A DNA stretch of 24,000 nucleotides, taken from assembly GCF_002985465.2 (NCBI RefSeq), contig NZ_CP135913.1; one strand, 5' to 3'. The position numbers and the translations under genes are program-made. This DNA is from Haemophilus influenzae. Lineage in GTDB: Bacteria; Pseudomonadota; Gammaproteobacteria; Enterobacterales; Pasteurellaceae. Below, piece by piece: positions 1,366-17,116 of this stretch. The notes below the pieces were generated by a model. That model saw nothing but the letters and a program-made list of their open reading frames with translations. It was not told the DNA's origin and did no database searches. Position 1 is the stretch's first letter. The number at the start of each line of letters is the position of its first letter.

Positions 1366-4300
1366 TTATGCAGAAATCGTTCTTAACAAATCCACCACAA
1401 ATTCTAACCGCACTTTGTTATCAGATAGATCTTTCATAAACTTAAATTTTAATGGGCCATCAAAGCGATACACAATAGGTTCTTTTTGAATTAATTGGAT
1501 AAATTTATCTGGATTCACTTGTGCTTTTGCTGAAAACTCAATAAAACCGCCTTGTGTTCCAGCATCAATTCGCACAACTTTTAACGGCTCAACCAATAAA
1601 CGCAACTCTGCAATTTGCAATAGATTTTTTGTCGCATCTGGCAATAGTCCGAACCGATCTATTAACTCAACTTTTAACTCGTCCAATTCTGATTTACTCT
1701 CTGCTGCGGCAATACGTTTATAAAAGGATAAACGCATATTCACATCACCTAAATAATCATCTGGCAATAAAGCAGGCACGCGCAATTCAATATCCGCTTG
1801 TTGTTGCGTCAATTCTTCTAATGATGGCTCTCGCCCTTCTTTTAATGCTTTAACCGCCGCATCCAATAATTCCATATAAAGCGAAAAACCGATGCTTTCA
1901 ATTTGTCCGCTTTGTTCGTTTCCGAGTAATTCGCCAGCGCCACGAATCTCTAAATCATGAGTTGCCAAGATAAAACCAGCCCCAAGATTATCAAGATTTT
2001 CCAAGGCATCTAGACGACGTTCGGCATCTTTTGTCATCATTTTAGGTGGGGGCGTAAGCAAATACGCATAAGCCTGATGATGTGAACGCCCGACTCGTCC
2101 GCGTAATTGATGAAGCTGAGCCAAACCAAAATGATCTGCTCGTTCAATAATAATGGTATTTGCCGTTGGTACATCAATACCCGTTTCGATAATGGTTGAA
2201 CAAACTAAGACGTTATAACGCTGATGATAAAAATCACTCATCACACGTTCTAACTCACGTTCTCGCATTTGTCCGTGCCCCACAATCACTCTCGCCTCTG
2301 GCACAAGTGCGGTCAGTTTTTCTGCTGTATTTTCAATGCTTGCAACATCATTGTGGAGATAATAAACCTGTCCACCACGGAGAATTTCACGCAAAATCGC
2401 TTCTCGCACAACAAGATCGTCATTCTGACGGACGAAGGTTTTAATACTTAATCGGCGCGCAGGAGGCGTAGAAATAATGGAAAGATCACGAATGCCATTC
2501 ATCGCCATATTAAGTGTTCGAGGAATTGGCGTTGCCGTTAGGGTAAGAATATCGATATTTGCACGAAGCTGTTTGATTTTCTCTTTTTGCCCCACACCGA
2601 AACGATGTTCTTCATCAATAATCAACAAACCAAGATCGCTAAATTTTACATCTGATTGAATTAATTTATGGGTACCAATCAGTATATCGACTTTGCCTTC
2701 TGCAAGGTTTTCCAGAATTTGTTTTTGTTCTTTTGCAGTTTTAAAACGTGATAACACTTCTACGTTCACAGGCAAATTCGCAAAACGATCTTTAAAATTC
2801 TCATAATGCTGTTGGGCTAACAATGTGGTTGGCACTAGCACTGCTACTTGTTTATGATTCATCACAGCCAAAAAGGCAGCACGCATTGCCACTTCAGTTT
2901 TACCAAAACCCACATCACCGCAAACAAGGCGATCCATTGCTTTTGGCTGACACATATCAGAAATTACCGCATTAATTGCCATTTCCTGATCGTAGGTTTC
3001 TTCAAAAGGAAAAGTTGCAGCAAATTGTTGAAATTCTTCACGATCATATTTAAAGGCAAAGCCTTTTTTCGCTTCACGTTGTGCATAAACATCTAGTAAC
3101 TCTGCCGCTACATCACGAATTTTCTCCGCTGCTTTTTGGCGTGATTTCGCCCAAGCCTCATTACCCAGTTTATGTAATGGTGCACTTTCATCAGAACCAC
3201 CAACATAACGGCTAATCAAATGTAATGAAGTCACTGGCACATAAAGTTTTGATTCATTTGCATAATTTAGTAGCAAATATTCTGCTTTAATACCGCCTGT
3301 ATCTAAGGTGACCAAACCACCATAACGTCCCACACCGTGATCAAGATGCACAACGGGCTGCCCTATTTTCAGTTCTGCAAGATTGCGTACAAGCGTGTCA
3401 GGATTAATCGTTTTACGTTTATCTCTAGAACGTTGTTGAACACGTTCGCCAAGTAAATTAGCTTCGCCAATAATCGCAACAGGAAGCGATTGTTCAATTA
3501 TAAAACCTTGTTCAAGAGAGCTGACTAACAAGCTAAATTTTTCATCTTGAGCCTGTTCCAAGGATTGAATTTGTTTTGGCTTGAGTTTTAACGCTGAAAG
3601 CAAATCAAGCAAAGTCTCTCGGCGACCTTCCGTCTCCACAGAAAACAGTATATTTCCTTTAAAATGCTCAATAAATTGGCGTAATTGCCCCAATGGTTCT
3701 TTTTGCTGGGATTGAATGGTCACTTCTGGTAAAGCGGCAACAGGTAAATTTTTCTGGCGTACCGATGACCGCACTTTTTCAGCCTTAAATGTAATACGTG
3801 GATAAGATTTCAATCGGCGATTAACTTCATCAACATTGAGCCATAATTTTTCAGGCGATAAAAGCGGACGCATCGGATCCACTTTACGTTGTTCATAACG
3901 CTGTTTGGCATCCTGATAAAAACGCTCGCCTTGCATTTGGTTGTTTTCCATATCCACAAACAGCGTTTGTTCTGGCAAATAATCAAATAAAGTAGCCATT
4001 TCAGAAAAGAAAAGTGGCTGCCAATATTCAATGCCAGAAATCAAAGTACCTTTACTGATTTGCTGATAAATATGTTCGGGATCTCGACGAATCTCCCCAA
4101 AAGTTTCACGAAATTGTGCACGGAAAAATTCAATCCCTTTGTCATCCGTTGGAAATTCGTGCGCTGGCAAAAGATTAATTGAGTTAATTTCATCAAGAGT
4201 ACGTTGCGTATCCACATCAAAAGTTCGAATGGAATCAATTTCATCATCAAAAAAATCAAGACGAAAAGGCACCGCACTTCCCATTGGGAAAAGATCCAAC

Positions 4301-4806
4301 AAAGCACCACGAACTGCGTACTCGCCGTGTTCTAATACTTGCTCCACAGCACGATAGCCCGCTGCTTCCAATTGTAAACGCATTTTATCGATGACCAAAC
4401 GATCGCCTTTTTTAATCAGAAGCACATTGTGTTGTAAATATTGTGGCGGGCAAAGGCGTTGCATTAATGTCGAAATCGGCAATAAGAAAATGCCTTTTTT
4501 CGCATTTTGTAAATGGAAAAGCGCACTTAAACGAGAAGAAATAATTTCTTGATGGGGAGAAAAGGTATCATAAGGCAACGTTTCCCAATCAGGAAATACG
4601 CATACATTTTGACTGCTTAATTCTGATAAAATACGTGATAAACGCACCGCACTTCGTGTATCTGGTGTGACTACTACGGTTAAATTTTGATTTTGCTCTG
4701 CAATTTCACTAATCGCCAGTGCATCAGCACCTTGTAAGACATTGCCTAAAATTTTATGATCATTAGGTGAGGTTGGAATATCAGGTTGGAAAAAAGCCGT
4801 TTTCAT
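1366..4806 (-). CDS. mfd: Transcription-repair coupling factor Mfd
   Basis: The 1146-aa product has a UvrB-homology N-terminal region, superfamily-2 helicase motifs ([26 protein letters not shown]) and a TRG-type C-terminal region. I place the start at ATG 4806 (MKTAFFQ) rather than 4842. A TTGAAA-N17-TACACT promoter ends right at 4843, so the 4842 ATG would lie upstream of the likely transcription start. Confidence 0.95.
1407..1415 (-). repeat. USS core (ACCGCACTT on + strand)
   Basis: Exact 9-mer match to the Haemophilus uptake signal sequence. Confidence 0.9.
2305..2313 (+). repeat. USS core AAGTGCGGT
   Basis: Exact 9-mer match. Confidence 0.9.
3768..3776 (-). repeat. USS core (ACCGCACTT on + strand)
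   Basis: Exact 9-mer match. Confidence 0.9.
4271..4279 (-). repeat. USS core (ACCGCACTT on + strand)
   Basis: Exact 9-mer match. Confidence 0.9.
4646..4654 (-). repeat. USS core (ACCGCACTT on + strand)
   Basis: Exact 9-mer match. Confidence 0.9.
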
Positions 4807-4842
4807 AAATAATGCATCAATCTTGTATAAAAATTGACGCAT

Positions 4843-4871
4843 AGTGTACTGGAATTTACCCTATCTTTCAA
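4843..4871 (-). promoter_or_regulatory. Candidate sigma70 promoter for mfd
   Basis: On the minus strand: -35 TTGAAA (4871-4866), a 17-nt spacer, and -10 TACACT (4848-4843). Confidence 0.4.
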
Positions 4872-4877
4872 TAAGTT

Positions 4878-4898
4878 TACTGTTTAAAAAAACAGTTA
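4878..4898. promoter_or_regulatory. LexA (SOS) box-like palindrome TACTGTTTAAAAAAACAGTTA
   Basis: CTGT (4880-4883), 8 nt, ACAG (4892-4895) matches the gammaproteobacterial SOS-box core CTGT-N8-ACAG with an AT-only spacer. It lies 6 nt upstream of the candidate mfd -35 and 5 nt after the stop of the small ORF. Confidence 0.4.
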
Positions 4899-4902
4899 AT
4901 AT

Positions 4903-5076
4903 TTATTTCTTTAAAGAAGATTCTTCTTTCTTCAAATTACCATTTTCATCTTCTGTTGCTGACATAGGCACGCAGCTACAATTAGGTTGATCTAACCCCC
5001 ATTCTTTAATGAAGTTGTCATATTTTTCAAGTGCGCGTTTAAACCAGCCTTTTGGTTTTGCGGTTTGTTCTGTCAT
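4903..5076 (-). CDS. Small 57-aa protein of unknown function, translationally coupled to tmcA
   Basis: Hand translation gives MTEQTAKPKGWFKRALEKYDNFIKEWGLDQPNCSCVPMSATEDENGNLKKEESSLKK. Its ATG (5076-5074) overlaps the tmcA TGA (5075-5073) as ATGA. An AGGAA ribosome-binding site lies 4 nt upstream. It is absent from the ORF track because it is shorter than 60 aa. Confidence 0.6.
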   Translation of the reverse strand: MTEQTAKPKGWFKRALEKYDNFIKEWGLDQPNCSCVPMSATEDENGNLKKEESSLKK

Positions 5077-7043
5077 AAAGTTCCTCGCGCTAAATATTGT
5101 TTAATTTCTAAACGCAAACATTCTACGCCTTTTTTCTTGTTAATGGGAAGTTGTTTTTTTGTTAAATAAGCGGAAATTAATGGAAAATTTTCTTTACCTG
5201 CTAATTTTAATAAACGCCTCATCGCAGGAACACTCGAAAATAAAGTGCGGTGAAAATTAGCGAAGTTTTTTAAGCTCAGCCAATCGAACTCATCAAGCTG
5301 CCAATCAAACTGATTTTGCTCAAAATTTATGGCGAACGGATGAAAAGATAAAGGGATATTACGCTGAAATTGTTTGTGTGCAGTATCAACTAAAGCCAAG
5401 CCTTCTTTGGAAAGACCTTTAAGGGCAATCGCTGAATAACAACCACTACTCGCTTCTTGATGTTCGCCTAAATGCACCAAAACAAAACCACACTTTTGCC
5501 AAAATTTTGCCAATTCGTCAGTGTAACCAAAACTTACCGAAAGAAAATCCACTTCTGAATTTTCCATAAATTTCATTAGATTTTGACCAATGCCCTTTTG
5601 CTGCCAATTTGGTTGCACGGCGATACGTGAAATGCGGAGTGAACGCAGTTTACAGGCTTGGGAAAGATTTTCATGGAAACATAACGCCTGCGGAACCAGA
5701 TTCCCTTTCGGACGGCGTTTGCCTTGTTGAATTTGAATAATCAACTCATCATCAGCCATATTTCCTTCTTCTAATGCCCAAATTGCACCGAGCAAATTCT
5801 GTTGATATTCGGCAAAATAAAAACGTTGATTTTCTCCATCCAGTAAACGGCGAAGATCGAGTGGCGATGTGCGGTAGTGAGCAATCGTCATTAGCCCATA
5901 AAAATCTCGAAAGAAAAATTGATGACTATATTCCCCTTGGCTGCCCTTGCTTGTGAGGGGTGCTACCGAAGGCTGAGGGGAGCTGGCTATATCTAAGTCC
6001 CCCTTCCGCCCTACGGGCACCTTCCCCCGCAAGCAGGGGAAGGAAAGGTTTTTAGCGTTTTCCTCAATGTTATAAGTAATATCGCTATAGTCGAAGTGCT
6101 GAAAATCATCTTCGGCATTTAGCAACAAAAGATCATCAATAAAATCTTCTAACGGATCATTTTCTTGCCAACGTAGAGGCTGTTTAAGCTCAAAATGCTG
6201 AAAAGTGCGGTGGATTTTTCGTTTAAATTTTAATTCAAAGCCACGCCCCGTTCCTTCGTAGCTATGAATTGTAGTACTGAAGACAATATGTTGAAAATAT
6301 TGAGAATATTGTTGCAATAATGGCAATGGGATCATCGCAGCTTCATCTACGAGCAACCAAGCGGATTGACTAAATTCAGATTCATGTTGTAACCGAATAG
6401 TCAGTTCATCGGGGGCGATAAATTCTATCTCTCGTTCTGAAAATTCAATAACCGAATGTACCGCACTTTTATTTGGTGCAGTGAGATAAACTGGTGCTTG
6501 AATTTGGTTAGTAAGTATCCCCAATAATGCCGATTTCCCTCTTCCCCGCTTTGCGGTTAGAAAATAAATATCCTGCTCAGCCTGTAAAATAGTCTCGATA
6601 ATTTGTTGTTGCGCTAACGTGGCATTTTTGTGATGCTCGTTAGAATAAAAAACCGAAGGAAATTCAACCGCACTTTCCTCTCTGAAAATAGGGAAATGAT
6701 AGCGTTCAATGCAATGTTTGAAATAATAAATAAAATTAGGCGTGGCGATTGCTGACTGATTTCCATTCCAACGTAAACTATCTTGATCAGGCTGCTGAGA
6801 TAAATTTTCCCAATCGGATAAGACTAAACAAAGTGTGCCACCCATTTTCAGTGTTCCAGCTGCAATAGCTAACGCTTCAAGATGAATGCCATTTCGTCCA
6901 TCAAATAAAATATGTTCAAATTCTTGTCCAAGCAAATTCGTTGCTTTCGAAAAAGCAATGCCACTTTCGCCGATAATCAAAACGTTATCAGGCACAAGTG
7001 GCAAAGTTTTACTGATTAAAATTTGAAGATGGCGAGATGGCAT
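5073..7043 (-). CDS. tmcA: tRNA(Met) cytidine acetyltransferase TmcA (helicase-like ATPase plus GNAT domain)
   Basis: Walker A TAKRGRGKSA, Walker B LLVDEAAMIP, HSYEGTGRGF, then a GNAT segment (RISRIAVQPNWQQKGIGQNL) and a C-terminal tRNA-binding-like tail. This architecture matches E. coli TmcA/YpfI. It contains an atypical G+C-rich in-frame segment, listed separately. Confidence 0.85.
   Translation of the reverse strand: MPSRHLQILISKTLPLVPDNVLIIGESGIAFSKATNLLGQEFEHILFDGRNGIHLEALAIAAGTLKMGGTLCLVLSDWENLSQQPDQDSLRWNGNQSAIATPNFIYYFKHCIERYHFPIFREESAVEFPSVFYSNEHHKNATLAQQQIIETILQAEQDIYFLTAKRGRGKSALLGILTNQIQAPVYLTAPNKSAVHSVIEFSEREIEFIAPDELTIRLQHESEFSQSAWLLVDEAAMIPLPLLQQYSQYFQHIVFSTTIHSYEGTGRGFELKFKRKIHRTFQHFELKQPLRWQENDPLEDFIDDLLLLNAEDDFQHFDYSDITYNIEENAKNLSFPCLRGKVPVGRKGDLDIASSPQPSVAPLTSKGSQGEYSHQFFFRDFYGLMTIAHYRTSPLDLRRLLDGENQRFYFAEYQQNLLGAIWALEEGNMADDELIIQIQQGKRRPKGNLVPQALCFHENLSQACKLRSLRISRIAVQPNWQQKGIGQNLMKFMENSEVDFLSVSFGYTDELAKFWQKCGFVLVHLGEHQEASSGCYSAIALKGLSKEGLALVDTAHKQFQRNIPLSFHPFAINFEQNQFDWQLDEFDWLSLKNFANFHRTLFSSVPAMRRLLKLAGKENFPLISAYLTKKQLPINKKKGVECLRLEIKQYLARGTL
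5243..5251 (+). repeat. USS core AAGTGCGGT
   Basis: Exact 9-mer match. Confidence 0.9.
5933..6048. repeat. G+C-rich, hairpin-rich MITE-like segment inside tmcA, read in frame
   Basis: By hand count about 74 of 116 bases are G or C, inside a visibly AT-rich gene. There is an 8-bp GC stem, CCTTCCCC (6020-6027) with GGGGAAGG (6036-6043). TGAGGGG occurs as a direct repeat at 5953 and 5974. The ends look like imperfect inverted repeats: CCCTTGCTTGTGAGGGG on the + strand versus CCCCTGCTTGCGGGGGA on the - strand. It encodes FPCLRGKVPVGRKGDLDIASSPQPSVAPLTSKGSQG. Confidence 0.5.
6203..6211 (+). repeat. USS core AAGTGCGGT
   Basis: Exact 9-mer match. Confidence 0.9.
6460..6468 (-). repeat. USS core (ACCGCACTT on + strand)
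   Basis: Exact 9-mer match. Confidence 0.9.
6667..6675 (-). repeat. USS core (ACCGCACTT on + strand)
   Basis: Exact 9-mer match. Confidence 0.9.
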
Positions 7044-7450: not shown

Positions 7451-9121
7451 TTACTTCGCAATACGTTTATATTTAATACGATGTGGCTGAGTTGCTGCAT
7501 CGCCTAAGGTTTTCTTTTTCCACTCTTCGTAGTCTGAGAAGTTACCTTCGTAGAACGTCACTTTACCTTCATCGCCGTAGTCTAAAATATGCGTTGCGAT
7601 ACGATCTAAGAACCAACGGTCATGGGAAATCACCATTGCACAGCCTGGGAATTCTAAGATCGCATTTTCTAAGGCACGCAAGGTTTCAACGTCCAAATCA
7701 TTGGTTGGTTCGTCCAATAACAGTACGTTACCTCCACGTTGTAGCAGTTTCGCTAAATGTAAACGACCACGTTCCCCACCCGATAATTCGCCCACGCGTT
7801 TTTGTTGATCTACCCCTTTGAAATTAAAACGTCCAACATAAGCACGGCTTGGAATTTCAAAGTTGCCGATAGTGAGAATGTCTTGCCCATTAGAGACTTC
7901 TTCCCATACAGTTTTTTTGTCATCCATAGCATCACGGAACTGATCCACCGAAGCAAGTACAACGGTTTCGCCCATCGTAATAGAGCCATTATCTGGCTGC
8001 TCTTGACCTGACAACATACGGAATAAGGTTGATTTACCTGCACCGTTCGCTCCGATAATCCCAACGATTGCACCTTTTGGAATACTGAATGATAAATCAT
8101 CAATCAAAGTGCGGTCGCCATAAGACTTGGTTAAGTTTTGCACTTCAATGACTTTATCGCCTAAGCGTGGACCTGGTGGAATAAAGAGTTCATTTGTTTC
8201 GTTTCGTTTTTGATATTCGCCAGAGTTCAATTCATCAAAACGAGCCATACGCGCCTTGCTTTTTGCTTGGCGACCTTTTGGATTTTGACGAACCCATTCC
8301 AACTCTTTCGCAATGGATTTTTGACGCGCATTTTCAGCGGCTTGTTCTTGCTCTAAACGTTTCTCTTTTTGCTCTAACCAAGAAGAATAGTTACCTTCCC
8401 AAGGAATACCCTCACCGCGGTCAAGCTCTAAGATCCAACCCGCTACGTTATCTAAGAAATAACGGTCGTGGGTAATTGCGACAACAGTGCCTTCGTAGTC
8501 GTGTAAGAAGCGTTCTAACCACGCCACAGATTCTGCATCTAAGTGGTTAGTTGGTTCGTCTAATAAGAGCATGTCTGGTTTTTCAAGCAATAAACGGCAA
8601 AGTGCCACACGACGACGCTCGCCCCCTGATAAATGCTCAATTTTCGCATCCCAATCTGGTAAACGTAACGCATCTGCGGCACGCTCTAATTGGTTATCTA
8701 AATTATGCCCATCATGCGCTTGAATAATGGCTTCAAGATTGGCTTGTTCTGCCGCTAATTTATCAAAATCTGCATCAGGATCCGCATAAAGCGCATACAC
8801 TTCATCTAAACGAGTAAGTGCATTTTTCACTTCAGAAACCGCTTCTTCCACTGCTTCACGCACGGTTTGTTGCGGTTCTAATTTTGGTTCTTGCGGAAGA
8901 TAACCGATTTTAATCCCAGATTGTGGACGAGCCTCCCCTTCAAACTCTTTATCTACGCCCGCCATAATGCGTAAAAGGGTCGATTTCCCCGCACCATTTA
9001 AGCCCAATACCCCGATTTTCGCACCTGGGAAAAAGCTTAAAGAAATATCTTTCAAAATATGACGCTTCGGCGGCACCACTTTGCCGACACGATGCATCGT
9101 ATACACAAATTGAGATGACAT
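7451..9121 (-). CDS. ettA: ABC-F translational throttle ATPase EttA
   Basis: Two ABC cassettes (GLNGAGKST / LSGGERRR / LLLDEPTNHLD and GANGAGKST / LSGGERGR / LLLDEPTNDLD). It aligns near-colinearly with the E. coli EttA sequence as I recall it, from MSSQFVYTMHRVGKVVPPKRHILK to the C-terminal RIKYKRIAK. Confidence 0.95.
   Translation of the reverse strand: MSSQFVYTMHRVGKVVPPKRHILKDISLSFFPGAKIGVLGLNGAGKSTLLRIMAGVDKEFEGEARPQSGIKIGYLPQEPKLEPQQTVREAVEEAVSEVKNALTRLDEVYALYADPDADFDKLAAEQANLEAIIQAHDGHNLDNQLERAADALRLPDWDAKIEHLSGGERRRVALCRLLLEKPDMLLLDEPTNHLDAESVAWLERFLHDYEGTVVAITHDRYFLDNVAGWILELDRGEGIPWEGNYSSWLEQKEKRLEQEQAAENARQKSIAKELEWVRQNPKGRQAKSKARMARFDELNSGEYQKRNETNELFIPPGPRLGDKVIEVQNLTKSYGDRTLIDDLSFSIPKGAIVGIIGANGAGKSTLFRMLSGQEQPDNGSITMGETVVLASVDQFRDAMDDKKTVWEEVSNGQDILTIGNFEIPSRAYVGRFNFKGVDQQKRVGELSGGERGRLHLAKLLQRGGNVLLLDEPTNDLDVETLRALENAILEFPGCAMVISHDRWFLDRIATHILDYGDEGKVTFYEGNFSDYEEWKKKTLGDAATQPHRIKYKRIAK
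8107..8115 (+). repeat. USS core AAGTGCGGT
   Basis: Exact 9-mer match. Confidence 0.9.
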
Positions 9122-9135
9122 TAATAATTCCTCAC

Positions 9136-9170
9136 AAAAAAATTCGCCCTATTTTACTGGAAAATAGGGC
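9136..9170 (-). terminator. Intrinsic terminator-like hairpin between higA and ettA
   Basis: A 10-bp stem, GCCCTATTTT (9146-9155) with AAAATAGGGC (9161-9170), followed on the minus strand by T7 (9142-9136). It ends about 15 nt before the ettA start codon. Confidence 0.55.
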
Positions 9171-9283
9171 AAAAATATAGGAAACAAGTGGACAGATTTT
9201 GCAAAAGTTTGGCGAAACCTAACCACTTGTAAATATTTAGAGTGAAGTATTCTCTAAATTAAATAGACACTTTAGGACTTAAA

Positions 9284-9607
9284 TTACATTGCAAATGCAG
9301 AAGTGCCATGCCGATGTAGAGCGGACTTAACATTCGCAAGGCTTTGTTGAAAACGTTTATTGTGTTCAAGGTTCCATAAATCAATACGTGTTTGCAGATT
9401 AAGCCAAAACTCAGGCGTAGTATCAAATGCTTTAGCAAGTTTAACTGCCATTTCTAGCGTAATTCGTGAACTATTATTAACAATATTGCTTGCCGTATTA
9501 CGATGTACATCTAAAATTTGAGCTAAATCATTAATTTTAAGACTTAAAGGTTCTAAAAACTCTTCTTGTAGAATTTCGCCAACAGAGGTGGGTTTTCTCG
9601 TCATCAT
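9284..9607 (-). CDS. higA: HigA-family antitoxin (XRE helix-turn-helix)
   Basis: A 107-aa product with an HTH segment (INDLAQILDVHRNTASNIVNN), placed directly downstream of a HigB-like toxin gene. This is the toxin-first order typical of higBA. As I recall, the gene is annotated vapA in Rd. Confidence 0.85.
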   Translation of the reverse strand: MMTRKPTSVGEILQEEFLEPLSLKINDLAQILDVHRNTASNIVNNSSRITLEMAVKLAKAFDTTPEFWLNLQTRIDLWNLEHNKRFQQSLANVKSALHRHGTSAFAM

Positions 9608-9617
9608 ATTATCTTCC

Positions 9618-9923
9618 TTATAAATTATAAGAATGTGGATCTAAATATAAATTATTTACTTCGTTATTCTCATATTTAAAAATTAGGCGATATTGTTTAT
9701 TTACTCTAATGGAATAAATTTTATTTTCTTTTGGCTCAAGCAACTCTAAGTGATTAGCTGGAGGAGAACGTAAATCATTGATGTCTTCTGCAGCACTTAT
9801 CATATCCAATTTTCTTGCCAATACTTTAGATAAATTAGAAGGAATCTTACTATGAGCATTACCATATTGATAAAACCTATAAAGATAATCATCTCTAAAA
9901 TGCTCACGCTTTAAATTAAACAT
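9618..9923 (-). CDS. higB: HigB-like (RelE/ParE superfamily) toxin
   Basis: A 101-aa product resembling the plasmid-maintenance killer HigB family (LRSPPANHLELL..., YSIRVNKQYRLIF). Only 10 nt separate it from higA. Confidence 0.8.
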   Translation of the reverse strand: MFNLKREHFRDDYLYRFYQYGNAHSKIPSNLSKVLARKLDMISAAEDINDLRSPPANHLELLEPKENKIYSIRVNKQYRLIFKYENNEVNNLYLDPHSYNL

Positions 9924-9952
9924 CTATTATTCTCTTGGTTATACTCGAGCTG

Positions 9953-9989
9953 ATCATAATAAGAATAAATGCACAATGCAAGAGTGCAT
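9953..9989 (-). promoter_or_regulatory. higBA promoter with overlapping palindromic operator
   Basis: On the minus strand: TTGCAT (9981-9976), 17 nt, TATGAT (9958-9953). The inverted repeat ATGCAC (9969-9974) / GTGCAT (9984-9989) brackets the -35. Confidence 0.5.
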
Positions 9990-10003
9990 CTTTCGACTTA
10001 GAT

Positions 10004-10028
10004 AAAAAAAACCACCCGAAACGGGTGG
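10004..10028 (-). terminator. Orphan intrinsic terminator upstream of higB
   Basis: CCACCCG (10012-10018) pairs with CGGGTGG (10022-10028) across a 3-nt loop. On the minus strand a T8 run follows (10011-10004). No ORF lies upstream of it on that strand. Confidence 0.55.
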
Positions 10029-10247
10029 CAGGAAAGTAGTTTAGCTATATTTATCATTATTTTATTTAGGAACTTTATGAATATCAAGCAATCACTTGAC
10101 GGGAGCTATTTTACTGAATATTGAAAGGCAAGGGAAATGCTATTGAGAGTTTTTTTGATTTACATCAACATTTTTGACAGAAAAATTCGTTTTTGCGTGT
10201 AGAATAAACAACTTCAAATTCTAGTGTTCAAAATAATAGGATTTTTT

Positions 10248-10868
10248 GTGAAAACGTATTCATTATTACTCGGTCTATTCATTAGTTGTGGTGTTTTAGC
10301 TCACCCTCACGCATTTATTGATATGCAAAGCACGCCCATTATAGAAAATAATCAACTTACTGGCTTTTCAATGAAATGGACGTTGGATGAACCAAGTTCG
10401 TCTGCGATTATTTATGATATGAAACAAGCTAGAACTAAAGCAGAGAAACAAAAACTTCTTGATGATGTCATGGGAAATATCGTCAGTGAACATTATTTCA
10501 GCTATTTATATGACAAGCAAAATAATAAAATCAAATATTCCCCTCGCCCAAAAAATTACGGCATTAACGTTCAAAACTTACAACTTCAATATTATTTTGA
10601 TGTGCCACTCTCCCATTCTCAAAAGTTAGAAAAAAACACATTTAGCTTACAAACTTACGATTCCACTTATTATGTGGCGATGACTTACGCCTCAAAAAGT
10701 GCGGTAGATTTTTCCGCACTTCCGAAAAATTGCCAAGGAAAATTAATTGAACCTAATGTGGATGAAAAAATCCAAGCCTACGCATCTTCACTTGATAAAT
10801 CCCAAAAGAACGAAGATGATTCCTTAGGTGTGATGTTCGCACAAAAAATAATAATTCAATGTGAGTAG
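10248..10868 (+). CDS. zevA: DUF1007-type periplasmic metal-binding component (ZevA-like)
   Basis: From GTG 10248 there is a signal peptide, MKTYSLLLGLFISCGVLA, then HPHAF. An AGGA lies 6 nt upstream. The ORF-track GTG at 10224 is the alternative start. The gene ends 2 nt before the NicO-type permease gene. The name zevA is from my memory of HI1249. Confidence 0.75.
   Translation: MKTYSLLLGLFISCGVLAHPHAFIDMQSTPIIENNQLTGFSMKWTLDEPSSSAIIYDMKQARTKAEKQKLLDDVMGNIVSEHYFSYLYDKQNNKIKYSPRPKNYGINVQNLQLQYYFDVPLSHSQKLEKNTFSLQTYDSTYYVAMTYASKSAVDFSALPKNCQGKLIEPNVDEKIQAYASSLDKSQKNEDDSLGVMFAQKIIIQCE
10697..10705 (+). repeat. USS core AAGTGCGGT
   Basis: Exact 9-mer match. An imperfect inverted copy (TCCGCACTT) lies 8 nt downstream. 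Confidence 0.9.
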
Positions 10869-12063: not shown

Positions 12064-14793
12064 TTACCATTGGTACCCAATACCGCCACCAATAGCATAA
12101 TCGCCTGCACTAGTTGCCGAGCCACTCACTTTGAAATGAATACGGTTATTATCACTTGATTTACTTAAGCCTACCGCCACAGCATTTTGGCCTTTAAAGT
12201 TACCAACACCTACACCAATCATTGTTCTACCTGCTCGGTTTGTTGTTGGAATATTTGCCATAGCAACTACTCCAGCTATCCCACCACGAAGTTTCCTATC
12301 TGTTTGTTTTAGCTCGTTACGAACTGAATTTACAGAATAATCAACATAGCGTTTATTTGCTGCATCAGTTAAGTTTTTAGGATCTTGAACGTTTGTAATT
12401 CGACGTTCATGACCAACATCACCTACTGAAATAGTATTTTCTTCTTTCGCAACAGAGCCTTCACCTAATGCAACAGAACCCACTGCTTTAGCTTCTGCAT
12501 TATGACCTATAGCCGTTGAGCGATCTGCGTGTGCTTTAGCGTTATTACCTAGAGCAGTAGAGTGATCCCCTTTCGCTTCAGAGCCATATCCCATTGCAGT
12601 TGAATCTTTACCTGAGGCCTTAGCACTATTTCTACCACTAGTGTTATCAGCTGCAAATGCAGTTTTACCATCTTTACTTATTAAACCTGAATTTTCTATA
12701 CGGTTCTCGATTATTTTAACGTTATTTTCAGACGCCTTCGCTTTATCTTCAGAGGCTTTAGCCGCATCTTCTGAAGCCTTCGCTTTATCTTCAGAGGCTT
12801 TAGCCGCATCTTCTGAAGCCTTCGCTTTATCTTCAGAGGCTTTAGCCGCATCTTTAGCGTTCTCTGCTTCGGCTTTCGCTGTTTCGGCCTTATCCGCTGC
12901 TGTTTCTGCAAGTGCAACAGATTGATTAATCTCGTTAAGTTTAGTCGTTACAGTTTGTGCCGCATTTTTAGCATCTGTAATTGCTTGCTTAGAATCAGCA
13001 TTTAATTTATAAATTACTGAACCATCACTACCAGCTTCAACAGAAAGCCCATCCTCTGCTTTGAAGTTCAAAGTATTATTTTTGTTATTTTCACTTGACG
13101 CCTCGTTATTGCGCATAGTTTTAACTACTACATCTCCTACAGTAAACTTATATTCCGTTTTAGCAATTTCGTCAGTTGCTTTGATTACAGAATAAAGCTG
13201 TGAACCAGTGATTACATCACTCGATGTAGCAGAGATCTCACCAGCTCCAACATTTTGGATCTGGCGCTTAATATTACTATTACCAAAACTTACTGTGCCA
13301 TTATCGGTTGCGACAACACCTTTAGATAGCGTAATGTCTCCGATTTTCATATCACTTACTGCATGTTTAGTAGATGTACTTGAAGATTTACCAATAGCAA
13401 TATCGCCAGAATTATTAGCAACTGCACTTTGCCCTAAGGCAATACCATTATTTGCACCAGAAGCAACATTAGCACGATCACCAATGCTAATCCCTGTAGC
13501 TGCCTCTGTTTTAGCACTGTTACCTAAAGTAATAGAATAACTTGCAGCAGCTTTCGCTTGTGCACCATTACCAATTACAATAGCTTGATTTGCACCACTT
13601 TCCGATTTTGCTTTATTATTTTTTGTATCGCCCACGCCACCAATTACAATAGATTTTGAGCCATTGGCTGTTGCTTCTGGACCAATTGCTACAGTTCTAT
13701 CGCCTCCTGCTGTTGCATGTGCACCAATAGCGACAACTCTTTCTCGTTCTCCTTTTGCATTTTGACCAATAACAACAGAGTTTTCTCTTTTTGCAGTAAC
13801 ATTTGTACCAATAGCAACGGTATTTTCTCTTTGTGCCTTTACACTACTACCGATTGCAACAGTATCTTCACGTTCAACTGTTGTTTTATTACCAATCGCA
13901 ATACTGTTATCTGAGCCTTTCCAAACTCCACTAACAGCGTGGCTTCCTGTAATACTTGCATTATTACCTAAGGTAATAGCATTGCTTGCCCAGTTTACGG
14001 TGCTATTGTTACCAATAGCAATTGAGTTATCAGGTTTTAGTGAATAAGGAGTACTTGCCAGAAGTTTCGCATTGGTACCAAATGCAATTGAGTTCGTTGC
14101 ACCTTCAACTTGTGCTTGTCTACCAATAGCAATTCCATTTAGTGCTTCACGATATTGATTTCCCCAGTAGTTATTAACATTTGCTCGAGAGCCTATAGCA
14201 ATAGAATCAGCAGCTAAGGCATTAGCATATACGCCAACAGCAACAGATCGAGAACCTTGAGCACCAGATTTTTCTGTAAATTTACCCAAGTTATCACTAA
14301 ATAACCCACCTGAGTTTTTTGTTTCAGCCTGTACTTTTGAGGTCTGAGCTGTAAGCCAATCTTCCCAAATACCGGTCTTATTAGCTTTATTACCTTCTGA
14401 ATTAACATGCACAAAACCTTTATATCTCTCTAACATTCTGTTTAATGAATGTACTGCATCAGTAGCAGATAAAACTCCAAGGTTTTCTGTTCCTTCTAAC
14501 GACATACTTCTTAAAATGCCACTATCTGCATCATAAACAATAGCTACGCCCTGCTTGGGAATATCTTCGTAATTTATTTTTGCTGCATAAGAAAAACTAC
14601 TTGCAAGAATAGAGGTAACTAGTGTAGCCAGAATAGATATAGGGAGTGTTTTGTTATTTTTTTCCGAGCTAGATGTTGAGCTAGATGTTGAGCTAGATGT
14701 TGAGCTAGCTTTAACTGCACCTTTCGCTAATTCTGAAACAACCTCTAGTCTCTGTGTTGTTTTATTCCAAATAATTTTAAATATACGATTCAT
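12064..14793 (-). CDS. Trimeric autotransporter adhesin (YadA/Hia-like)
   Basis: N-terminal extended signal peptide motif MNRIFKIIWNKTTQRLEVVSELAKG. Many YadA-head-type repeats (SIAIGxxA, TVAIGxxA). An Ala/Lys/Glu-rich coiled-coil stalk. A C-terminal 4-strand beta anchor ending GGGIGYQW. An AAGG ribosome-binding site lies 6 nt before the ATG. Confidence 0.9.
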   Translation of the reverse strand: MNRIFKIIWNKTTQRLEVVSELAKGAVKASSTSSSTSSSTSSSEKNNKTLPISILATLVTSILASSFSYAAKINYEDIPKQGVAIVYDADSGILRSMSLEGTENLGVLSATDAVHSLNRMLERYKGFVHVNSEGNKANKTGIWEDWLTAQTSKVQAETKNSGGLFSDNLGKFTEKSGAQGSRSVAVGVYANALAADSIAIGSRANVNNYWGNQYREALNGIAIGRQAQVEGATNSIAFGTNAKLLASTPYSLKPDNSIAIGNNSTVNWASNAITLGNNASITGSHAVSGVWKGSDNSIAIGNKTTVEREDTVAIGSSVKAQRENTVAIGTNVTAKRENSVVIGQNAKGERERVVAIGAHATAGGDRTVAIGPEATANGSKSIVIGGVGDTKNNKAKSESGANQAIVIGNGAQAKAAASYSITLGNSAKTEAATGISIGDRANVASGANNGIALGQSAVANNSGDIAIGKSSSTSTKHAVSDMKIGDITLSKGVVATDNGTVSFGNSNIKRQIQNVGAGEISATSSDVITGSQLYSVIKATDEIAKTEYKFTVGDVVVKTMRNNEASSENNKNNTLNFKAEDGLSVEAGSDGSVIYKLNADSKQAITDAKNAAQTVTTKLNEINQSVALAETAADKAETAKAEAENAKDAAKASEDKAKASEDAAKASEDKAKASEDAAKASEDKAKASENNVKIIENRIENSGLISKDGKTAFAADNTSGRNSAKASGKDSTAMGYGSEAKGDHSTALGNNAKAHADRSTAIGHNAEAKAVGSVALGEGSVAKEENTISVGDVGHERRITNVQDPKNLTDAANKRYVDYSVNSVRNELKQTDRKLRGGIAGVVAMANIPTTNRAGRTMIGVGVGNFKGQNAVAVGLSKSSDNNRIHFKVSGSATSAGDYAIGGGIGYQW
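12734..12854. repeat. 42-bp in-frame tandem repeat, about 2.9 copies, in the adhesin stalk
   Basis: The unit GCCTTCGCTTTATCTTCAGAGGCTTTAGCCGCATCTTCTGAA occurs at 12734, 12776 and 12818. It encodes KASEDKAKASEDAA, which is 14 aa or two heptads. Confidence 0.9.
14666..14709. repeat. 12-bp in-frame tandem repeat, about 3.7 copies, in the adhesin signal-peptide region
   Basis: GAGCTAGATGTT occurs at 14666, 14678 and 14690, with a partial fourth copy. It encodes (S-T-S-S)n between the ESPR motif and the hydrophobic core of the signal peptide. Confidence 0.9.
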
Positions 14794-14894
14794 AAATAAC
14801 CTTCATTTCAGGGATATAGATAACCCACATATTTTTTAACGCATTTTCTAGATAATGACGTTTAAATAAGTGTGAGATTGAGATAAAGGTTGGC

Positions 14895-14960
<66 letters not shown>

Positions 14961-15004
14961 ATATGTTTAATGCTTTTTTTGTAAGAATTTGTAAAGAAAG
15001 AAGA

Positions 15005-15160
15005 GATTCAAATTAACTTCTTGACATCCTCCTCGCCCTAAAGGTCGGGGATTCCTACTCGTTCCCACGCTTTGCGTGGGTTACTCTCGGTGGGTTCTTG
15101 TTGCTGACCTCTATTGAGATTCACTTCACAAGCTCGACGGCTATGTCCCAGCCTGATATT
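15005..15160 (-). ncRNA. Predicted TnpB omega/right-end RNA (scaffold plus flank-derived guide)
   Basis: In known TnpB systems the guide RNA spans the tnpB 3' end and the right end, then reads into the flank. Here that region contains the stem CCCACGC/GCGTGGG (15064-15080) and the right-end hairpin (15031-15050). The predicted guide is the 16 nt GAAGTTAATTTGAATC (15020-15005, minus strand). The extents are inferred. Confidence 0.35.
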
Positions 15161-16296
15161 TTACGCTTGGACGATAGCTCGCCACGCGCTAAAACGTTTG
15201 ACGCCCCGACCACATCCGCATTTTCTGTGTAGCCACATTCTACGCATTCAAAATCAGCCTGCGTTTGGCGGTTTTCCTTTGCGGTATAACCGCAACAAGG
15301 GCAAGTTCGACTGGTGTTCTGAGATGGAACAGCCACTAAAAAACCACCTAGCCATTGCGTTTTATAGTCCAATTGACGGCGGAACTCGAACCAAGATTGG
15401 TCTAATATCGCTCGGTTCAAACCTGATTTCTGTTTCACATTTTTACCATGTTCTTCCGCTGTGCCTTTGGCTGATTTAGACATAGCCAACACCGGTAAAT
15501 CTTCAACGTAGATCATTTCGTGGTTTTTGCTGATTTTACTTGGAGTTTGGTTCAAGAAGTCTTTACGACAGTTGGCGATTTTGTGGTGCAATTTAGCGAT
15601 TTTCGCCTTTAATTTCTGCCAGTTTTGACTAAATTTAATCTTATTTTTAAGTCGGCGTTGTAGTTTTGCTAGTTTGCCTTTGTGGGTTTTAAAGGCATTC
15701 AACGGCTTAAAATATTCACTGTTTGAAAGCGTTACAAACCGTGCAACACCCATATCTATGTCAATTTCTCCACCTTGATGTGTTGGGATTTCATATTCAA
15801 ATTCCGTTTGAATACTGACAAAAAAACGACCGCACTTTTGGCTAACTGTGACGTTTTTAATTTCGCCGACGACATCACGGCTGTTGCGATAACGAACCCA
15901 ACCGATTTTCGGCAGATACAAGCGATTATTTTGTTGTTCCAGTTTGCAACCTTGCGGAAAACGAAAGCGCTCTTTCAAGCCTTTTTTCTTGAATTTCGGG
16001 AAGTCAGCACACTTTTGAAAGAAGTTTTTGAACGCACTTTCAAGGTCTTTTAACGACTGTTGGAGTACTTGGGAATAGCAATCTTTAAGCCAAAGTAGCT
16101 CTTTTTTCCAGTTCGGAAGCAGATTGGCTATTTTCGTATAACTGAACTTGACGCTATTATCTTGCTCATATTGCTCATTCTGCCAAGCCAATGCCCGATT
16201 GAAGACAAAACGAGAGCAACCACAGAACTGCTTAATTCTGCGGATTTGTTCGCCGTTTGGCATTATTTCGAACTTAAAGGCTTTACGTAGTTGCAT
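15121..16296 (-). CDS. tnpB: TnpB (IS605 OrfB) RNA-guided endonuclease, apparently intact
   Basis: A 391-aa product from ATG 16296. RuvC-I IDIDMGV, RuvC-II MIYVEDL, zinc finger CPCCG...CVECG and RuvC-III NADVVGASNV are all present. The N-terminus (QLRKAFKFEIMPNGEQ) is typical of TnpB. Confidence 0.9.
   Translation of the reverse strand: MQLRKAFKFEIMPNGEQIRRIKQFCGCSRFVFNRALAWQNEQYEQDNSVKFSYTKIANLLPNWKKELLWLKDCYSQVLQQSLKDLESAFKNFFQKCADFPKFKKKGLKERFRFPQGCKLEQQNNRLYLPKIGWVRYRNSRDVVGEIKNVTVSQKCGRFFVSIQTEFEYEIPTHQGGEIDIDMGVARFVTLSNSEYFKPLNAFKTHKGKLAKLQRRLKNKIKFSQNWQKLKAKIAKLHHKIANCRKDFLNQTPSKISKNHEMIYVEDLPVLAMSKSAKGTAEEHGKNVKQKSGLNRAILDQSWFEFRRQLDYKTQWLGGFLVAVPSQNTSRTCPCCGYTAKENRQTQADFECVECGYTENADVVGASNVLARGELSSKRKISGWDIAVELVK
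15829..15837 (-). repeat. USS core (ACCGCACTT on + strand) inside tnpB
   Basis: Exact 9-mer match with a T-rich 3' extension on the minus strand (AAAGTGCGGTCGTTTTTT). Confidence 0.9.
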
Positions 16297-16341
16297 TGGC
16301 AAGGTTTAGAATATGATTCTTCTACATTCTACACTTGGTCT

Positions 16342-16759
16342 ATGAAAAAAAGAAACTGAAATCAGACACGGTAGACATTGCATTTTTAATATGCACGTTC
16401 ACTTAGTCTTTGTTACAAAATACCGCCGTGATGTTTTTACGAAAGCGATTTTAGATGATCTCAATTTGGTTTTCTAAAGCGTCTGCAATGATTTTGAAGC
16501 AAAATTAGTCGAGTTTGACGGCGAAGACGATCACGTTCATTTACTCATTGAATATCCGCCGAGAGTGGCAGTTTCTACGCTAGTAAACAGCCTAAAAGGT
16601 GTATCAAGTCGAATGATTAGAAAGAAAAATTACCCAAGTATCCGAAAAAAACTTTGGAGCAATCAGCTTTGGTCACCATCTTATTTTGCCGGTAGTTGCG
16701 GTGGTGCACCTATTTCAATTATTCGCCAATACATCGAGCAACAACAAACACCCGATTAG
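16342..16759 (+). pseudogene. tnpA: IS200-type Y1 (HUH) transposase tnpA carrying two lesions
   Basis: ATG 16342 is followed by an A7 run (16345-16351), and translation stops after 5 codons. Removing one A restores MKKETEIRHGRHCIFNMHVHLVFVTKYRR. The restored frame then meets an in-frame TAA at 16475-16477, before the HUH motif (DDHVHLL) and the C-terminal Tyr region (RQYIEQQ). The track ORF 16565-16759 is the distal fragment. Confidence 0.8.
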
Positions 16760-16873
16760 TTAGCTTTGAAACGGCTACGCCGTTTGTGCCTTATATCTCC
16801 GCCCTGAAGGACGGAGTTTTACTGCACAGGGCTGATAAACATAATGTGACAACTAATTATCAATTCAATAAAT

Positions 16874-16898
16874 AAAATGTAAATTAAATTTACATTTT
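16874..16898. repeat. 25-bp perfect palindrome AAAATGTAAATTAAATTTACATTTT
   Basis: Every position pairs around the centre at 16886. It lies 12 nt upstream of the tRNA-Asn -35 and about 38 nt from the IS left end. Confidence 0.85.
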
Positions 16899-16910
16899 TA
16901 TACATTTTGA

Positions 16911-16939
16911 TTGACAAGGAATAAGCTCCTTATTAAAAT
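16911..16939 (+). promoter_or_regulatory. tRNA-Asn promoter
   Basis: TTGACA (16911-16916), 17 nt, TAAAAT (16934-16939), about 32 nt before the mature tRNA 5' end. Confidence 0.6.
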
Positions 16940-16971
16940 GTACGACCCATTCCTTGTGATACAAAGTTTAT

Positions 16972-17047
16972 TCCTCCTTAGTTCAGTCGGTAGAACGGTG
17001 GACTGTTAATCCATATGTCGCTGGTTCAAGTCCAGCAGGAGGAGCCA
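16972..17047 (+). tRNA. tRNA-Asn (anticodon GTT)
   Basis: A 76-nt cloverleaf folded by hand: acceptor TCCTCCT/AGGAGGA, D stem GTTC/GAAC, anticodon stem GTGGA/TCCAT with loop CTGTTAA, T stem GCTGG/CCAGC, and an encoded CCA. It is close to the E. coli tRNA-Asn sequence as I recall it. Confidence 0.95.
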
Positions 17048-17116
17048 ATTTTTCTTTTGGTTTAGAGTTTGTTTGTCTCCTTTTACAAATTCTAAATTAG
17101 CAACCAAAAGATTTTG

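What the first reader, a model, noticed from the sequence alone, without database searches (positions are those of the whole stretch)
15005..16839. IS605-like element with an intact TnpB nuclease but a doubly inactivated TnpA, next to the adhesin control region
The tnpB ORF is full length and retains all three RuvC acidic motifs and the zinc finger. The tnpA ORF has an extra A in an A7 run directly after its ATG and an in-frame TAA before the HUH motif, so it should be non-functional. The element therefore cannot move itself but may still make an RNA-guided nuclease. An exact USS inside tnpB fits long residence in a Haemophilus genome. The tnpB 3' end and right end, which give rise to the omega RNA in characterised systems, point at the adhesin upstream region. 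The predicted flank-derived guide is GAAGTTAATTTGAATC, and the (AT)30 tract starts 62 bp from the element end. This may simply be normal TnpB donor-site homing biology. Selective retention of tnpB after loss of tnpA beside a contingency locus still deserves a look.
Basis: partly seen in the sequence, partly recalled or inferred. Interest (0 to 1): 0.7.

Follow-up and report, generated by a model that had tools for sequence, protein, structure and literature searches.

The report
Decaying IS200/IS605 insertion beside an adhesin
This is one worn-out copy of a common Haemophilus jumping gene: its transposase is dead, and its RNA-guided nuclease gene is still open here but already broken in sister strains, so nothing suggests it was kept for a purpose.

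Summary
Window 15021-16834 is an 1814-bp IS200/IS605 element in Haemophilus influenzae. It sits after a TTTAT target (16835-16839), and 15005-20 is the flank that would act as guide. An empty-site allele fixes both ends. tnpA carries the extra A (A7, 16345-51) and a GAA>TAA stop (16475-77).

tnpB keeps its RuvC D/E/D residues and zinc finger, but it is not truly intact:
- A 1-nt deletion replaces the last six residues with 19 unrelated ones (391 vs 378 aa).
- Nine residues invariant in 120 relatives are changed, including G179D beside the catalytic Asp.
- Two window-specific changes break the right-end hairpin of a conserved, covarying omega-RNA.

Three other strains carry this same insertion with the same A7. 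Their tnpB has stop codons and frameshifts.

Fully intact copies of this IS sit at five or more other loci in the species. The internal USS is present in most (40/48) copies across Pasteurellaceae, so it says nothing about residence time here. The TA tract varies (4-30 repeats) with or without the IS.

Verdict: an ordinary decaying IS copy, of low interest.

The parts
15005..15020 (-). Right flank of the element. This is the 16 nt that would be the omega-RNA guide (GAAGTTAATTTGAATC).
   Evidence: Empty-site alleles L064 and L066 read TTTAT immediately followed by this sequence. The only match in the window is the donor joint itself, which is preceded by GTCAA, not TTTAT.
15021..15155 (-). Right end (RE) plus the omega-RNA scaffold, about 135 nt, ending ...GGAGGATGTCAA.
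   Evidence: The GGAGGATGTCAA end is invariant in about 55 family copies. The consensus structure has 33 pairs, 17 of them with compensatory changes. 97% of cells are paired, against 36-52% when the partners are slid. There is a weak Rfam HgcC hit at 15008-15111 (20.8 bits, E 0.056, below gathering).
15031..15050 (-). RE subterminal hairpin, degraded in this copy. It reads CCCCGACC-UUUA-GGGCGAGG, where sister alleles have CCCCGUCC-UUUA-GGGCGGGG.
   Evidence: Window-specific changes at 15033 and 15045 break 2 of 8 pairs. The scaffold's minimum free energy is -39.5 kcal/mol (z -1.9), against -52.0 (z -4.2) for the sister allele.
15121..16296 (-). tnpB ORF, 391 aa. The RuvC D181/E265/D361 residues and the CCCC zinc finger are present. 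There is a 1-nt deletion at 15182-15183, which puts the canonical stop at 15161-15163 out of frame. Nine replacements fall at family-invariant residues.
15829..15837 (+). Hin-type uptake signal sequence (ACCGCACTT; AAGTGCGGT on the tnpB strand, encoding K-C-G). The adjacent A7 run at 15820-15826 is where L062/L065 lost one base.
   Evidence: The USS is exact in 40 of 48 family copies, plus 2 more where an alignment gap offsets the readout.
16297..16341 (.). 45-bp divergent intergenic region between tnpB and tnpA.
16342..16759 (+). tnpA pseudogene (Y1 HUH transposase). It has an A7 frameshift at 16345-16351 and a GAA>TAA change at 16475-16477. The HVHLL HUH motif lies downstream of both.
   Evidence: Pfam Y1_Tnp scores 1.7e-43 on the repaired translation. 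The A7 is shared by L062/L063/L065, and the TAA is unique to the window. Most TnpA relatives are 138 aa.
16760..16834 (-). Left end (LE) with its subterminal hairpin (16797-16816: CTCCGTCC-TTCA-GGGCGGAG on the tnpB strand).
16835..16839 (-). TTTAT target site, which is the predicted TAM. It lies 5' of the LE on the tnpB strand.
   Evidence: TTTAT (TTAT core) flanks the LE in about 40 independent family insertions. There is no target duplication in the empty-site comparison.
14898..14957 (.). (TA)30 tract upstream of the adhesin gene. This is context, not part of the IS.
   Evidence: Repeat number is 30, 7, 4 and 9 in IS-bearing alleles and 10 in an empty-site allele.

Best explanation
This is a single, immobile, decaying copy of an ordinary IS200/IS605-family element (IS605-type, with divergent tnpA and tnpB). 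The element is common and still intact elsewhere in H. influenzae and other Pasteurellaceae.

**History of this copy**
1. It inserted once, 3' of a TTTAT, in the intergenic region between tRNA-Asn and a trimeric autotransporter adhesin gene.
2. Before the carrier strains diverged, it acquired the A6>A7 frameshift in tnpA and a 1-nt deletion at the 3' end of tnpB.
3. Each lineage has since gathered its own lesions in both genes. The window strain gained the tnpA TAA, seven TnpB replacements (six at invariant residues) and two pair-breaking changes in the right-end hairpin. Sister strains gained stops and frameshifts in tnpB.

**How the family works** (established knowledge: Karvelis 2021, PMC8612924; Nakagawa 2023, PMC10097598). 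TnpA excises and inserts the top strand using the subterminal hairpins. TnpB bound to the right-end omega-RNA cuts TTTAT + flank in an emptied donor site, so that the element is restored by recombination.

**What applies to this copy.** With no TnpA acting, that homing function has nothing to act on. Shown here: tnpB is drifting. Inferred: the open tnpB reading frame in this strain is survival by chance, not retention. Its position next to the TA tract is an accident of where a TTTAT lay in AT-rich intergenic DNA.
For: - **Ends and target.** An empty-site allele defines exact ends with no target duplication. The TTTAT target and the GGAGGATGTCAA end are conserved in about 40-55 independent insertions.
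- **tnpA.** Both lesions are verified against intact copies.
- **Shared ancestry of the insertion.** The A7 and the tnpB 3' deletion are shared by all four alleles at this locus.
- **Sister alleles.** Their tnpB carries Q76*, Q121*, three 1-nt deletions and one 3-nt deletion. Gene callers find only a 236-aa fragment or nothing there.
- **Window TnpB.** It has 9 replacements at positions invariant in 120 relatives. Six of the 7 replacements on the window's own branch hit invariant positions. That is about what no constraint predicts, because 57% of positions are invariant.
- **RNA.** The omega-RNA scaffold took 4 changes on the window branch. Two of them break pairs in the terminal hairpin and cost about 12 kcal/mol.
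- **Intact copies elsewhere.** Copies with a 138-aa TnpA and a 378-aa TnpB sit at 5 or more other loci in H. influenzae. The TnpA sequence is indexed in 782 blocks of the collection.
- **Purifying selection in intact copies.** Their dN/dS is 0.10-0.20.
- **TA tract.** Its length varies independently of whether the IS is present.
Against: - The tnpB ORF is still open over 1176 nt with all catalytic residues, while sister alleles took 2-3 disrupting hits each. A neutral sequence could stay open by chance, but this is mildly suggestive.
- The crude non-synonymous to synonymous count on the window branch is 7:9 (dN/dS about 0.2 with all sites, about 0.5 with strictly derived sites). That is not clearly neutral. 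However, the demonstrably dead alleles give 6:3 and 6:6. Fisher tests do not separate the window branch from either the dead alleles or the intact copies.
- In ISDra2, deleting residues 376-408 leaves cleavage intact (PMC10097598), so the C-terminal frameshift alone may be tolerated.
- No expression or activity data were available.
- Only 24 kb of this genome was seen, so an intact TnpA elsewhere that could act in trans is not excluded.
Confidence: 0.85

Rival explanations
1. TnpB and its omega-RNA are still functional in this strain and carry out the normal selfish job. They cut any TTTAT-GAAGTTAATTTGAATC empty site, for instance after trans-mobilisation by a TnpA from another copy, or after an IS-free allele is taken up by natural transformation. 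This would keep the insertion in place.
For: - The ORF is open and the RuvC triad and zinc finger are intact.
- Four of the six omega-RNA helices are unchanged, and a fifth has only a G-C to G-U change.
- The empty-site allele, with TAM plus target, circulates in closely related strains.
- Intact TnpA of the same family exists in the species.
- The ISDra2 C-terminal tail is dispensable.
Against: - Nine replacements fall at invariant residues, including G179D two residues before the catalytic D181 and Q268P three residues after E265.
- The guide-proximal hairpin has lost 2 of 8 pairs.
- The same insertion is kept in three strains whose tnpB is dead, so TnpB is not needed to hold it.
- The degraded RE hairpin would also impair recognition by TnpA.
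Confidence: 0.1
2. The element has been co-opted to influence the adhesin. This could be as a TldR-like RNA-guided regulator. Alternatively, transcription from tnpB and the omega-RNA could read through into the adhesin gene, which lies downstream on the same strand.
For: - tnpB, the RE and the adhesin gene are all on the minus strand, with the adhesin downstream.
- No terminator-like site was found in 14700-17100.
- The IS separates a promoter-like site (TTTACA-16-GATAAT, 16883-16856, minus strand) from the adhesin gene.
Against: - The RuvC residues are present, whereas TldRs have lost them.
- Both transposon ends are retained.
- The guide is simply the insertion flank, and it matches nothing else in the window.
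- tnpB is dead in sister alleles.
- The TA tract and the region from it to the adhesin start are found, with a few substitutions, in strains without the IS.
- The TA tract varies in both IS-bearing and IS-free alleles.
Confidence: 0.04
3. The lesions are sequencing or assembly errors at homopolymers, and this is an ordinary active IS.
For: Two of the lesions (the A7 run and the CC run) lie in short homopolymers.
Against: - The element is 100% identical in an independent draft assembly (L001).
- The A7 and the tnpB deletion recur in three other strains' assemblies.
- The TAA is a base substitution, not a homopolymer error.
Confidence: 0.01

Closest known systems
IS605 / IS608 of Helicobacter pylori (IS200/IS605 family, Y1 HUH TnpA plus TnpB)
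   Same: - It has a Y1 transposase and a TnpB, and the genes are divergent as in IS605.
- It has no terminal inverted repeats, and has subterminal hairpins at both ends.
- It inserts 3' of a short T-rich motif without a target duplication.
- The right end finishes in TCAA, as in IS608 (that comparison is from my own knowledge).
   Different: The target is TTTAT rather than TTAC. This copy is non-autonomous because tnpA is a pseudogene. I could not consult ISfinder, so the formal IS name is unknown.
ISDra2 TnpB-omega RNA (Deinococcus radiodurans), the characterised RNA-guided nuclease
   Same: - The protein aligns over residues 4-369 at E 1e-42, with the catalytic D/E/D and the CCCC zinc finger conserved.
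- A structured RNA of about 135 nt lies at the right end and would be followed by a 16-nt flank-derived guide.
- The TAM equals the transposon target.
   Different: - In this family the RNA scaffold lies almost wholly downstream of the canonical tnpB stop rather than overlapping the ORF.
- The TAM is TTTAT rather than TTGAT.
- The window's copy has a frameshifted tail and a damaged terminal hairpin.
Intact copies of the same IS in H. influenzae (e.g. L070 LS483411.1, L071 CP095947.1, L074 CP095938.1) and multi-copy relatives in Gallibacterium anatis and Avibacterium paragallinarum
   Same: They are 92-95.5% identical over the full 1814 bp, with the same ends, the same TTTAT target and the same internal USS.
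   Different: Those copies have a 138-aa TnpA and a 378-aa TnpB. The window's copy has neither.
TldR (TnpB-like nuclease-dead repressors)
   Same: It is a TnpB-family gene without a working transposase, next to a surface-structure gene.
   Different: The RuvC residues are intact, both transposon ends are present, the guide is the plain insertion flank, and the gene is not conserved across strains. It is not a member.

Membership tests
IS200/IS605 family insertion sequence | Y1 (HUH) transposase TnpA | tested here: met
   Pfam PF01797 scores E 1.7e-43 on the repaired reading frame. It is present only as a pseudogene, with the A7 frameshift and the TAA.
IS200/IS605 family insertion sequence | Subterminal hairpins at both ends, and no terminal inverted repeats | tested here: met
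   The LE has CTCCGTCC-TTCA-GGGCGGAG. The RE has CCCCGTCC-TTTA-GGGCGGGG in the family consensus, with 2 mismatches in the window.
IS200/IS605 family insertion sequence | Insertion 3' of a fixed tetra- or pentanucleotide, without target-site duplication | tested here: met
   The empty site reads TTTAT|GAAGTT. The occupied site reads TTTAT|CAGCCC...GTCAA|GAAGTT. TTTAT flanks about 40 independent insertions.
IS200/IS605 family insertion sequence | Autonomous mobility (a working TnpA) | tested here: not met
   There is a frameshift right after the ATG and a stop codon before the HUH motif. It is a defective member, not an active one.
TnpB RNA-guided endonuclease (functional) | RuvC D-E-D triad and a CCCC zinc finger | tested here: met
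   D181, E265 and D361 align with the catalytic D, E and D of ISDra2 TnpB (D191/E278/D361 in PMC10097598). The cysteines are C332, C335, C351 and C354.
TnpB RNA-guided endonuclease (functional) | Native full-length protein with the family's conserved residues | tested here: not met
   A 1-nt deletion changes everything after residue 372. Nine replacements fall at positions invariant in 120 relatives.
TnpB RNA-guided endonuclease (functional) | Conserved structured omega-RNA at the right end | tested here: inconclusive
   At family level this is met: 17 of 33 pairs covary. In the window's copy the terminal helix has lost 2 pairs, and the fold is 12.5 kcal/mol weaker than in the sister allele.
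TnpB RNA-guided endonuclease (functional) | RNA-guided, TAM-dependent DNA cleavage | not testable with these tools
   This needs an interference or in vitro cleavage assay.
TldR-type domesticated TnpB regulator | Loss of RuvC catalytic residues | tested here: not met
   All three catalytic residues are present.
TldR-type domesticated TnpB regulator | Gene conserved intact at the locus across strains, with a guide matching a host promoter | tested here: not met
   Sister alleles are pseudogenes. The guide is the insertion flank and has no other match in the window.

The most novel reading that the evidence does not exclude
In this one strain the drifted TnpB and its omega-RNA could still be active. 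In a naturally competent species they would then cut IS-free TTTAT-GAAGTTAATTTGAATC alleles taken up by transformation. That would lock in the IS-bearing haplotype upstream of a phase-variable adhesin. TnpB homing would be acting as a barrier to allelic replacement rather than as an aid to transposition.
Probability: 0.05. Interest if true: 0.45.

Novelty: already known. Interest (0 to 1): 0.12.

Why it matters
It matters little beyond annotation. The locus should be labelled as a defective IS200/IS605 element: tnpA is a pseudogene and tnpB is frameshifted at its 3' end. The work gives three small by-products:
- The ends, the TTTAT TAM and a covariation-supported omega-RNA structure are now defined for a TnpB family that is widespread in Pasteurellaceae.
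- This IS family carries a conserved uptake signal sequence.
- An open tnpB next to a dead tnpA is not evidence of domestication until sister alleles have been checked.

Tried and rejected
- **First boundary call.** From three loci I placed the right end 3 nt further out, because GAA follows TCAA in the four closest insertions. I also mis-indexed the ruler by one. The empty-site alleles and about 50 family ends corrected this.
- **dN/dS as a test of retention.** The lineage counts are too small: window 7:9, dead alleles 6:3 and 6:6. Fisher tests do not separate the window from either dead or intact copies. I relied instead on where the replacements fall.
- **Rfam.** No family reaches its gathering score over the element. 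There is only a weak HgcC hit at the RE.
- **Guide targets.** Searching TAM + guide, and the guide alone, with up to 3 mismatches found only the donor joint. The rest of the genome was not available.
- **TTGATA-(TA)n-TATAAT as the adhesin promoter.** The spacers are 54, 8, 2, 14 and 12 nt in five alleles and never 16-18. The model is neither confirmed nor useful for judging an effect of the IS.
- **Literature.** I found no paper linking H. influenzae TnpB or IS605 to this locus.
- **Not attempted.** Structure prediction (it would not decide activity), ISfinder (not available), and identifying the adhesin by homology search.
Full report
**What is there**

The window is Haemophilus influenzae. 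Its UvrB and this TnpB are exact matches to proteins that NCBI names as H. influenzae.

On the minus strand, 15121-16296 is a 391-aa ORF. Pfam assigns it HTH_OrfB_IS605, OrfB_IS605 and Cas12f1-like TNB domains.

On the plus strand, a tnpA reading frame runs from the ATG at 16342 to 16759. Once repaired, it scores 1.7e-43 against Y1_Tnp. The two genes are divergent and 45 bp apart, as in IS605.

**Exact boundaries**

Looking up contigs that encode the identical UvrB returned the same chromosomal region from other strains.

- L064 and L066 lack the element. They read ...CAAATTAACTTC|ATAAACATAATG....
- The element is therefore 15021-16834 (1814 bp).
- On the tnpB strand it reads TTTAT|CAGCCCTGTG...GGAGGATGTCAA|GAAGTTAATTTGAATC, with no target duplication.
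- About 55 family copies from other Pasteurellaceae all end in GGAGGATGTCAA and have unrelated flanks. About 40 have TTTAT 5' of the left end.

My own first boundary call was 3 nt off and was withdrawn.

**tnpA**

- Intact close relatives (L060, L061) have A6 after the ATG and GAA at codon 45. The window has A7 (16345-16351) and TAA (16475-16477).
- Most TnpA relatives are 138 aa and start at this ATG, so the extra A is inactivating.
- Gene callers find a 122/123-aa internal-start ORF in sister alleles. The TAA removes even that ORF here.
- An independent draft assembly (L001) is identical over all 1814 bp, so these are not sequencing errors.

**tnpB is open but not intact**

- D181, E265 and D361 align with the catalytic D, E and D of ISDra2 TnpB, and the CCCC zinc finger is present. 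PMC10097598 gives the ISDra2 numbering.
- Nearly all 120 listed relatives are 378 aa. The window lacks one C at 15182-15183. The tail RAIVQA* therefore becomes 19 unrelated residues.
- In ISDra2, deleting residues 376-408 is tolerated, and the RuvC domain runs to residue 375. The shift after residue 372 is therefore borderline.
- The protein has nine replacements at positions that are invariant in 120 relatives: H74Y, R96C, G179D, G193S, H249N, S252P, A260E, Q268P and N271A.
- G179D lies two residues before the catalytic D181. Q268P lies three residues after E265.

**The omega-RNA**

Aligning the last 140 nt of 49 family copies gives a six-helix consensus of 33 pairs. Seventeen pairs show compensatory changes. 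97% of cells are paired, against 36-52% when the partners are slid, and no shuffle reached the observed covariation score.

This is good evidence that the family makes a structured right-end RNA of about 135 nt. The scaffold lies almost entirely downstream of the canonical tnpB stop.

In the window's copy, changes at 15033 and 15045 break two of the eight pairs in the terminal hairpin. That hairpin is also the right-end hairpin that TnpA recognises. The predicted fold is -39.5 kcal/mol (z -1.9), against -52.0 (z -4.2) in a sister allele.

Rfam has no hit at gathering score, only a weak HgcC match.

**The decisive comparison**

Three other strains (L062, L065, L063) carry this same insertion at the same site. 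They share both the A7 and the tnpB 3' deletion. Those two lesions therefore predate the split of these strains.

| Allele | tnpB lesions | Gene call |
|---|---|---|
| L062 / L065 | Q76*, a 1-nt deletion in the A7 run beside the USS, a 3-nt deletion | 236-aa fragment |
| L063 | Q121*, two 1-nt deletions (one near the catalytic D181 codon) | none |

On the window's own branch there are 7 replacements and 9 synonymous changes. The dead alleles give 6:3 and 6:6, and intact copies give dN/dS of 0.10-0.20. These counts cannot discriminate between the models.

Where the replacements fall is more informative. Six of the window's seven hit invariant positions, and 57% of positions are invariant. That is what no constraint predicts, and it is not what the family's own constraint allows.

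**The element is ordinary and alive elsewhere**

- The intact 138-aa TnpA (P0270) is named H. influenzae and is indexed in 782 blocks of the collection.
- Full copies with a 378-aa TnpB sit at five or more other loci. They are 92-95.5% identical to the window's copy.
- Another H. influenzae locus (L057, between znuA and a peptidase_S11 gene) has a copy with about 345 bp deleted from tnpA. L071 has the intact version at that same locus. Decay of tnpA is therefore recurrent.
- Relatives are multi-copy in Gallibacterium and Avibacterium.

**USS**

AAGTGCGGT is exact at the same position in 40 of 48 family copies across genera. It encodes the invariant K-C-G. It is a trait of the IS family and perhaps helps it spread by transformation. 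It is not a clock for residence in this genome.

**Adhesin context**

- The 909-aa ORF is a YadA-type trimeric autotransporter.
- Its upstream TA tract has 30 repeats here. It has 7, 9 and 4 in other IS-bearing alleles, and 10 in an empty-site allele.
- The tract therefore varies regardless of the IS.
- The same kind of promoter repeat is reported for TabA1 (TA8) and TahA1 (TA5) in biogroup aegyptius (PMC3309571).
- tnpB and the adhesin gene are co-directional, and no terminator was predicted between them. Read-through is possible but untested.

**Verdict**

The interpretation of selective retention is not supported.

The best explanation (confidence about 0.85) is a defective, decaying copy of a known IS. 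Its open tnpB frame in this strain is a chance survivor.

It is already known in kind, and interest is low.

Noticed in passing
window 14898-14957; L062 5477, L063 5480, L064 7280, L065 5473: The (TA)n tract upstream of the adhesin varies among closely related strains: 30, 7, 4, 10 and 9 repeats. On the adhesin strand it lies between TTGATA and TATAAT. That gives spacers of 54, 8, 2, 14 and 12 nt, never 16-18. The draft assembly L001 breaks inside the tract. TabA1 and TahA1 of biogroup aegyptius are reported with TA(8) and TA(5) promoter repeats (PMC3309571).
   Followed up: partly
window 15829-15837 and the same position in 40 of 48 family loci: The IS family carries a conserved Hin-type uptake signal sequence inside tnpB, encoding K-C-G. 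This could favour its spread between competent Pasteurellaceae by transformation.
   Followed up: partly
right flanks of L001/window, L057, L060, L002, L071, L074: In the closest subclade, GAA follows the TCAA end in five independent insertions, with three exceptions (L070, L072, L046). It is rare in more distant copies. The empty site shows that GAA belongs to the target, so this may be an extended target preference or chance.
   Followed up: partly
window 15008-15111 (-): There is a weak Rfam match to HgcC family RNA over the right end (20.8 bits, gathering score 50, E 0.056). It may reflect distant similarity between omega-RNAs and that archaeal RNA family.
   Followed up: no
L039 3242-3431, L030 3240-3429, L052 452-641, L012 2309-2498: These are right-end, omega-RNA-like copies whose upstream sequence is not the 3' end of tnpB. 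They may be tnpB-less miniature derivatives or rearranged elements, in Lonepinella koalarum and Gallibacterium.
   Followed up: no
L074 (H. influenzae CP095938.1) 3679-5492 and 8905-10417: Two copies of the IS lie about 3.4 kb apart in opposite orientation. They bracket RNase T, RNase H and a porin gene.
   Followed up: no
L062 2704-5374 versus window 12064-14793, L063 2120-5377, L064 4401-7178, L065 2698-5370: The adhesin gene differs in length between strains (909, 890, 925 and 1085 aa). In L062 it is split into a 121-aa ESPR piece and a 771-aa piece, which suggests a frameshift in or near the Ser/Thr-rich repeat after the signal peptide. L063 has a different passenger domain and an extra DUF2827 gene downstream.
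   Followed up: no
window 16883-16856 (-): A promoter-like site (TTTACA-16-GATAAT) lies just outside the left end and points towards the adhesin. In empty-site strains it would be about 250 bp upstream of the adhesin start. The IS moves it 1.8 kb further away.
   Followed up: no
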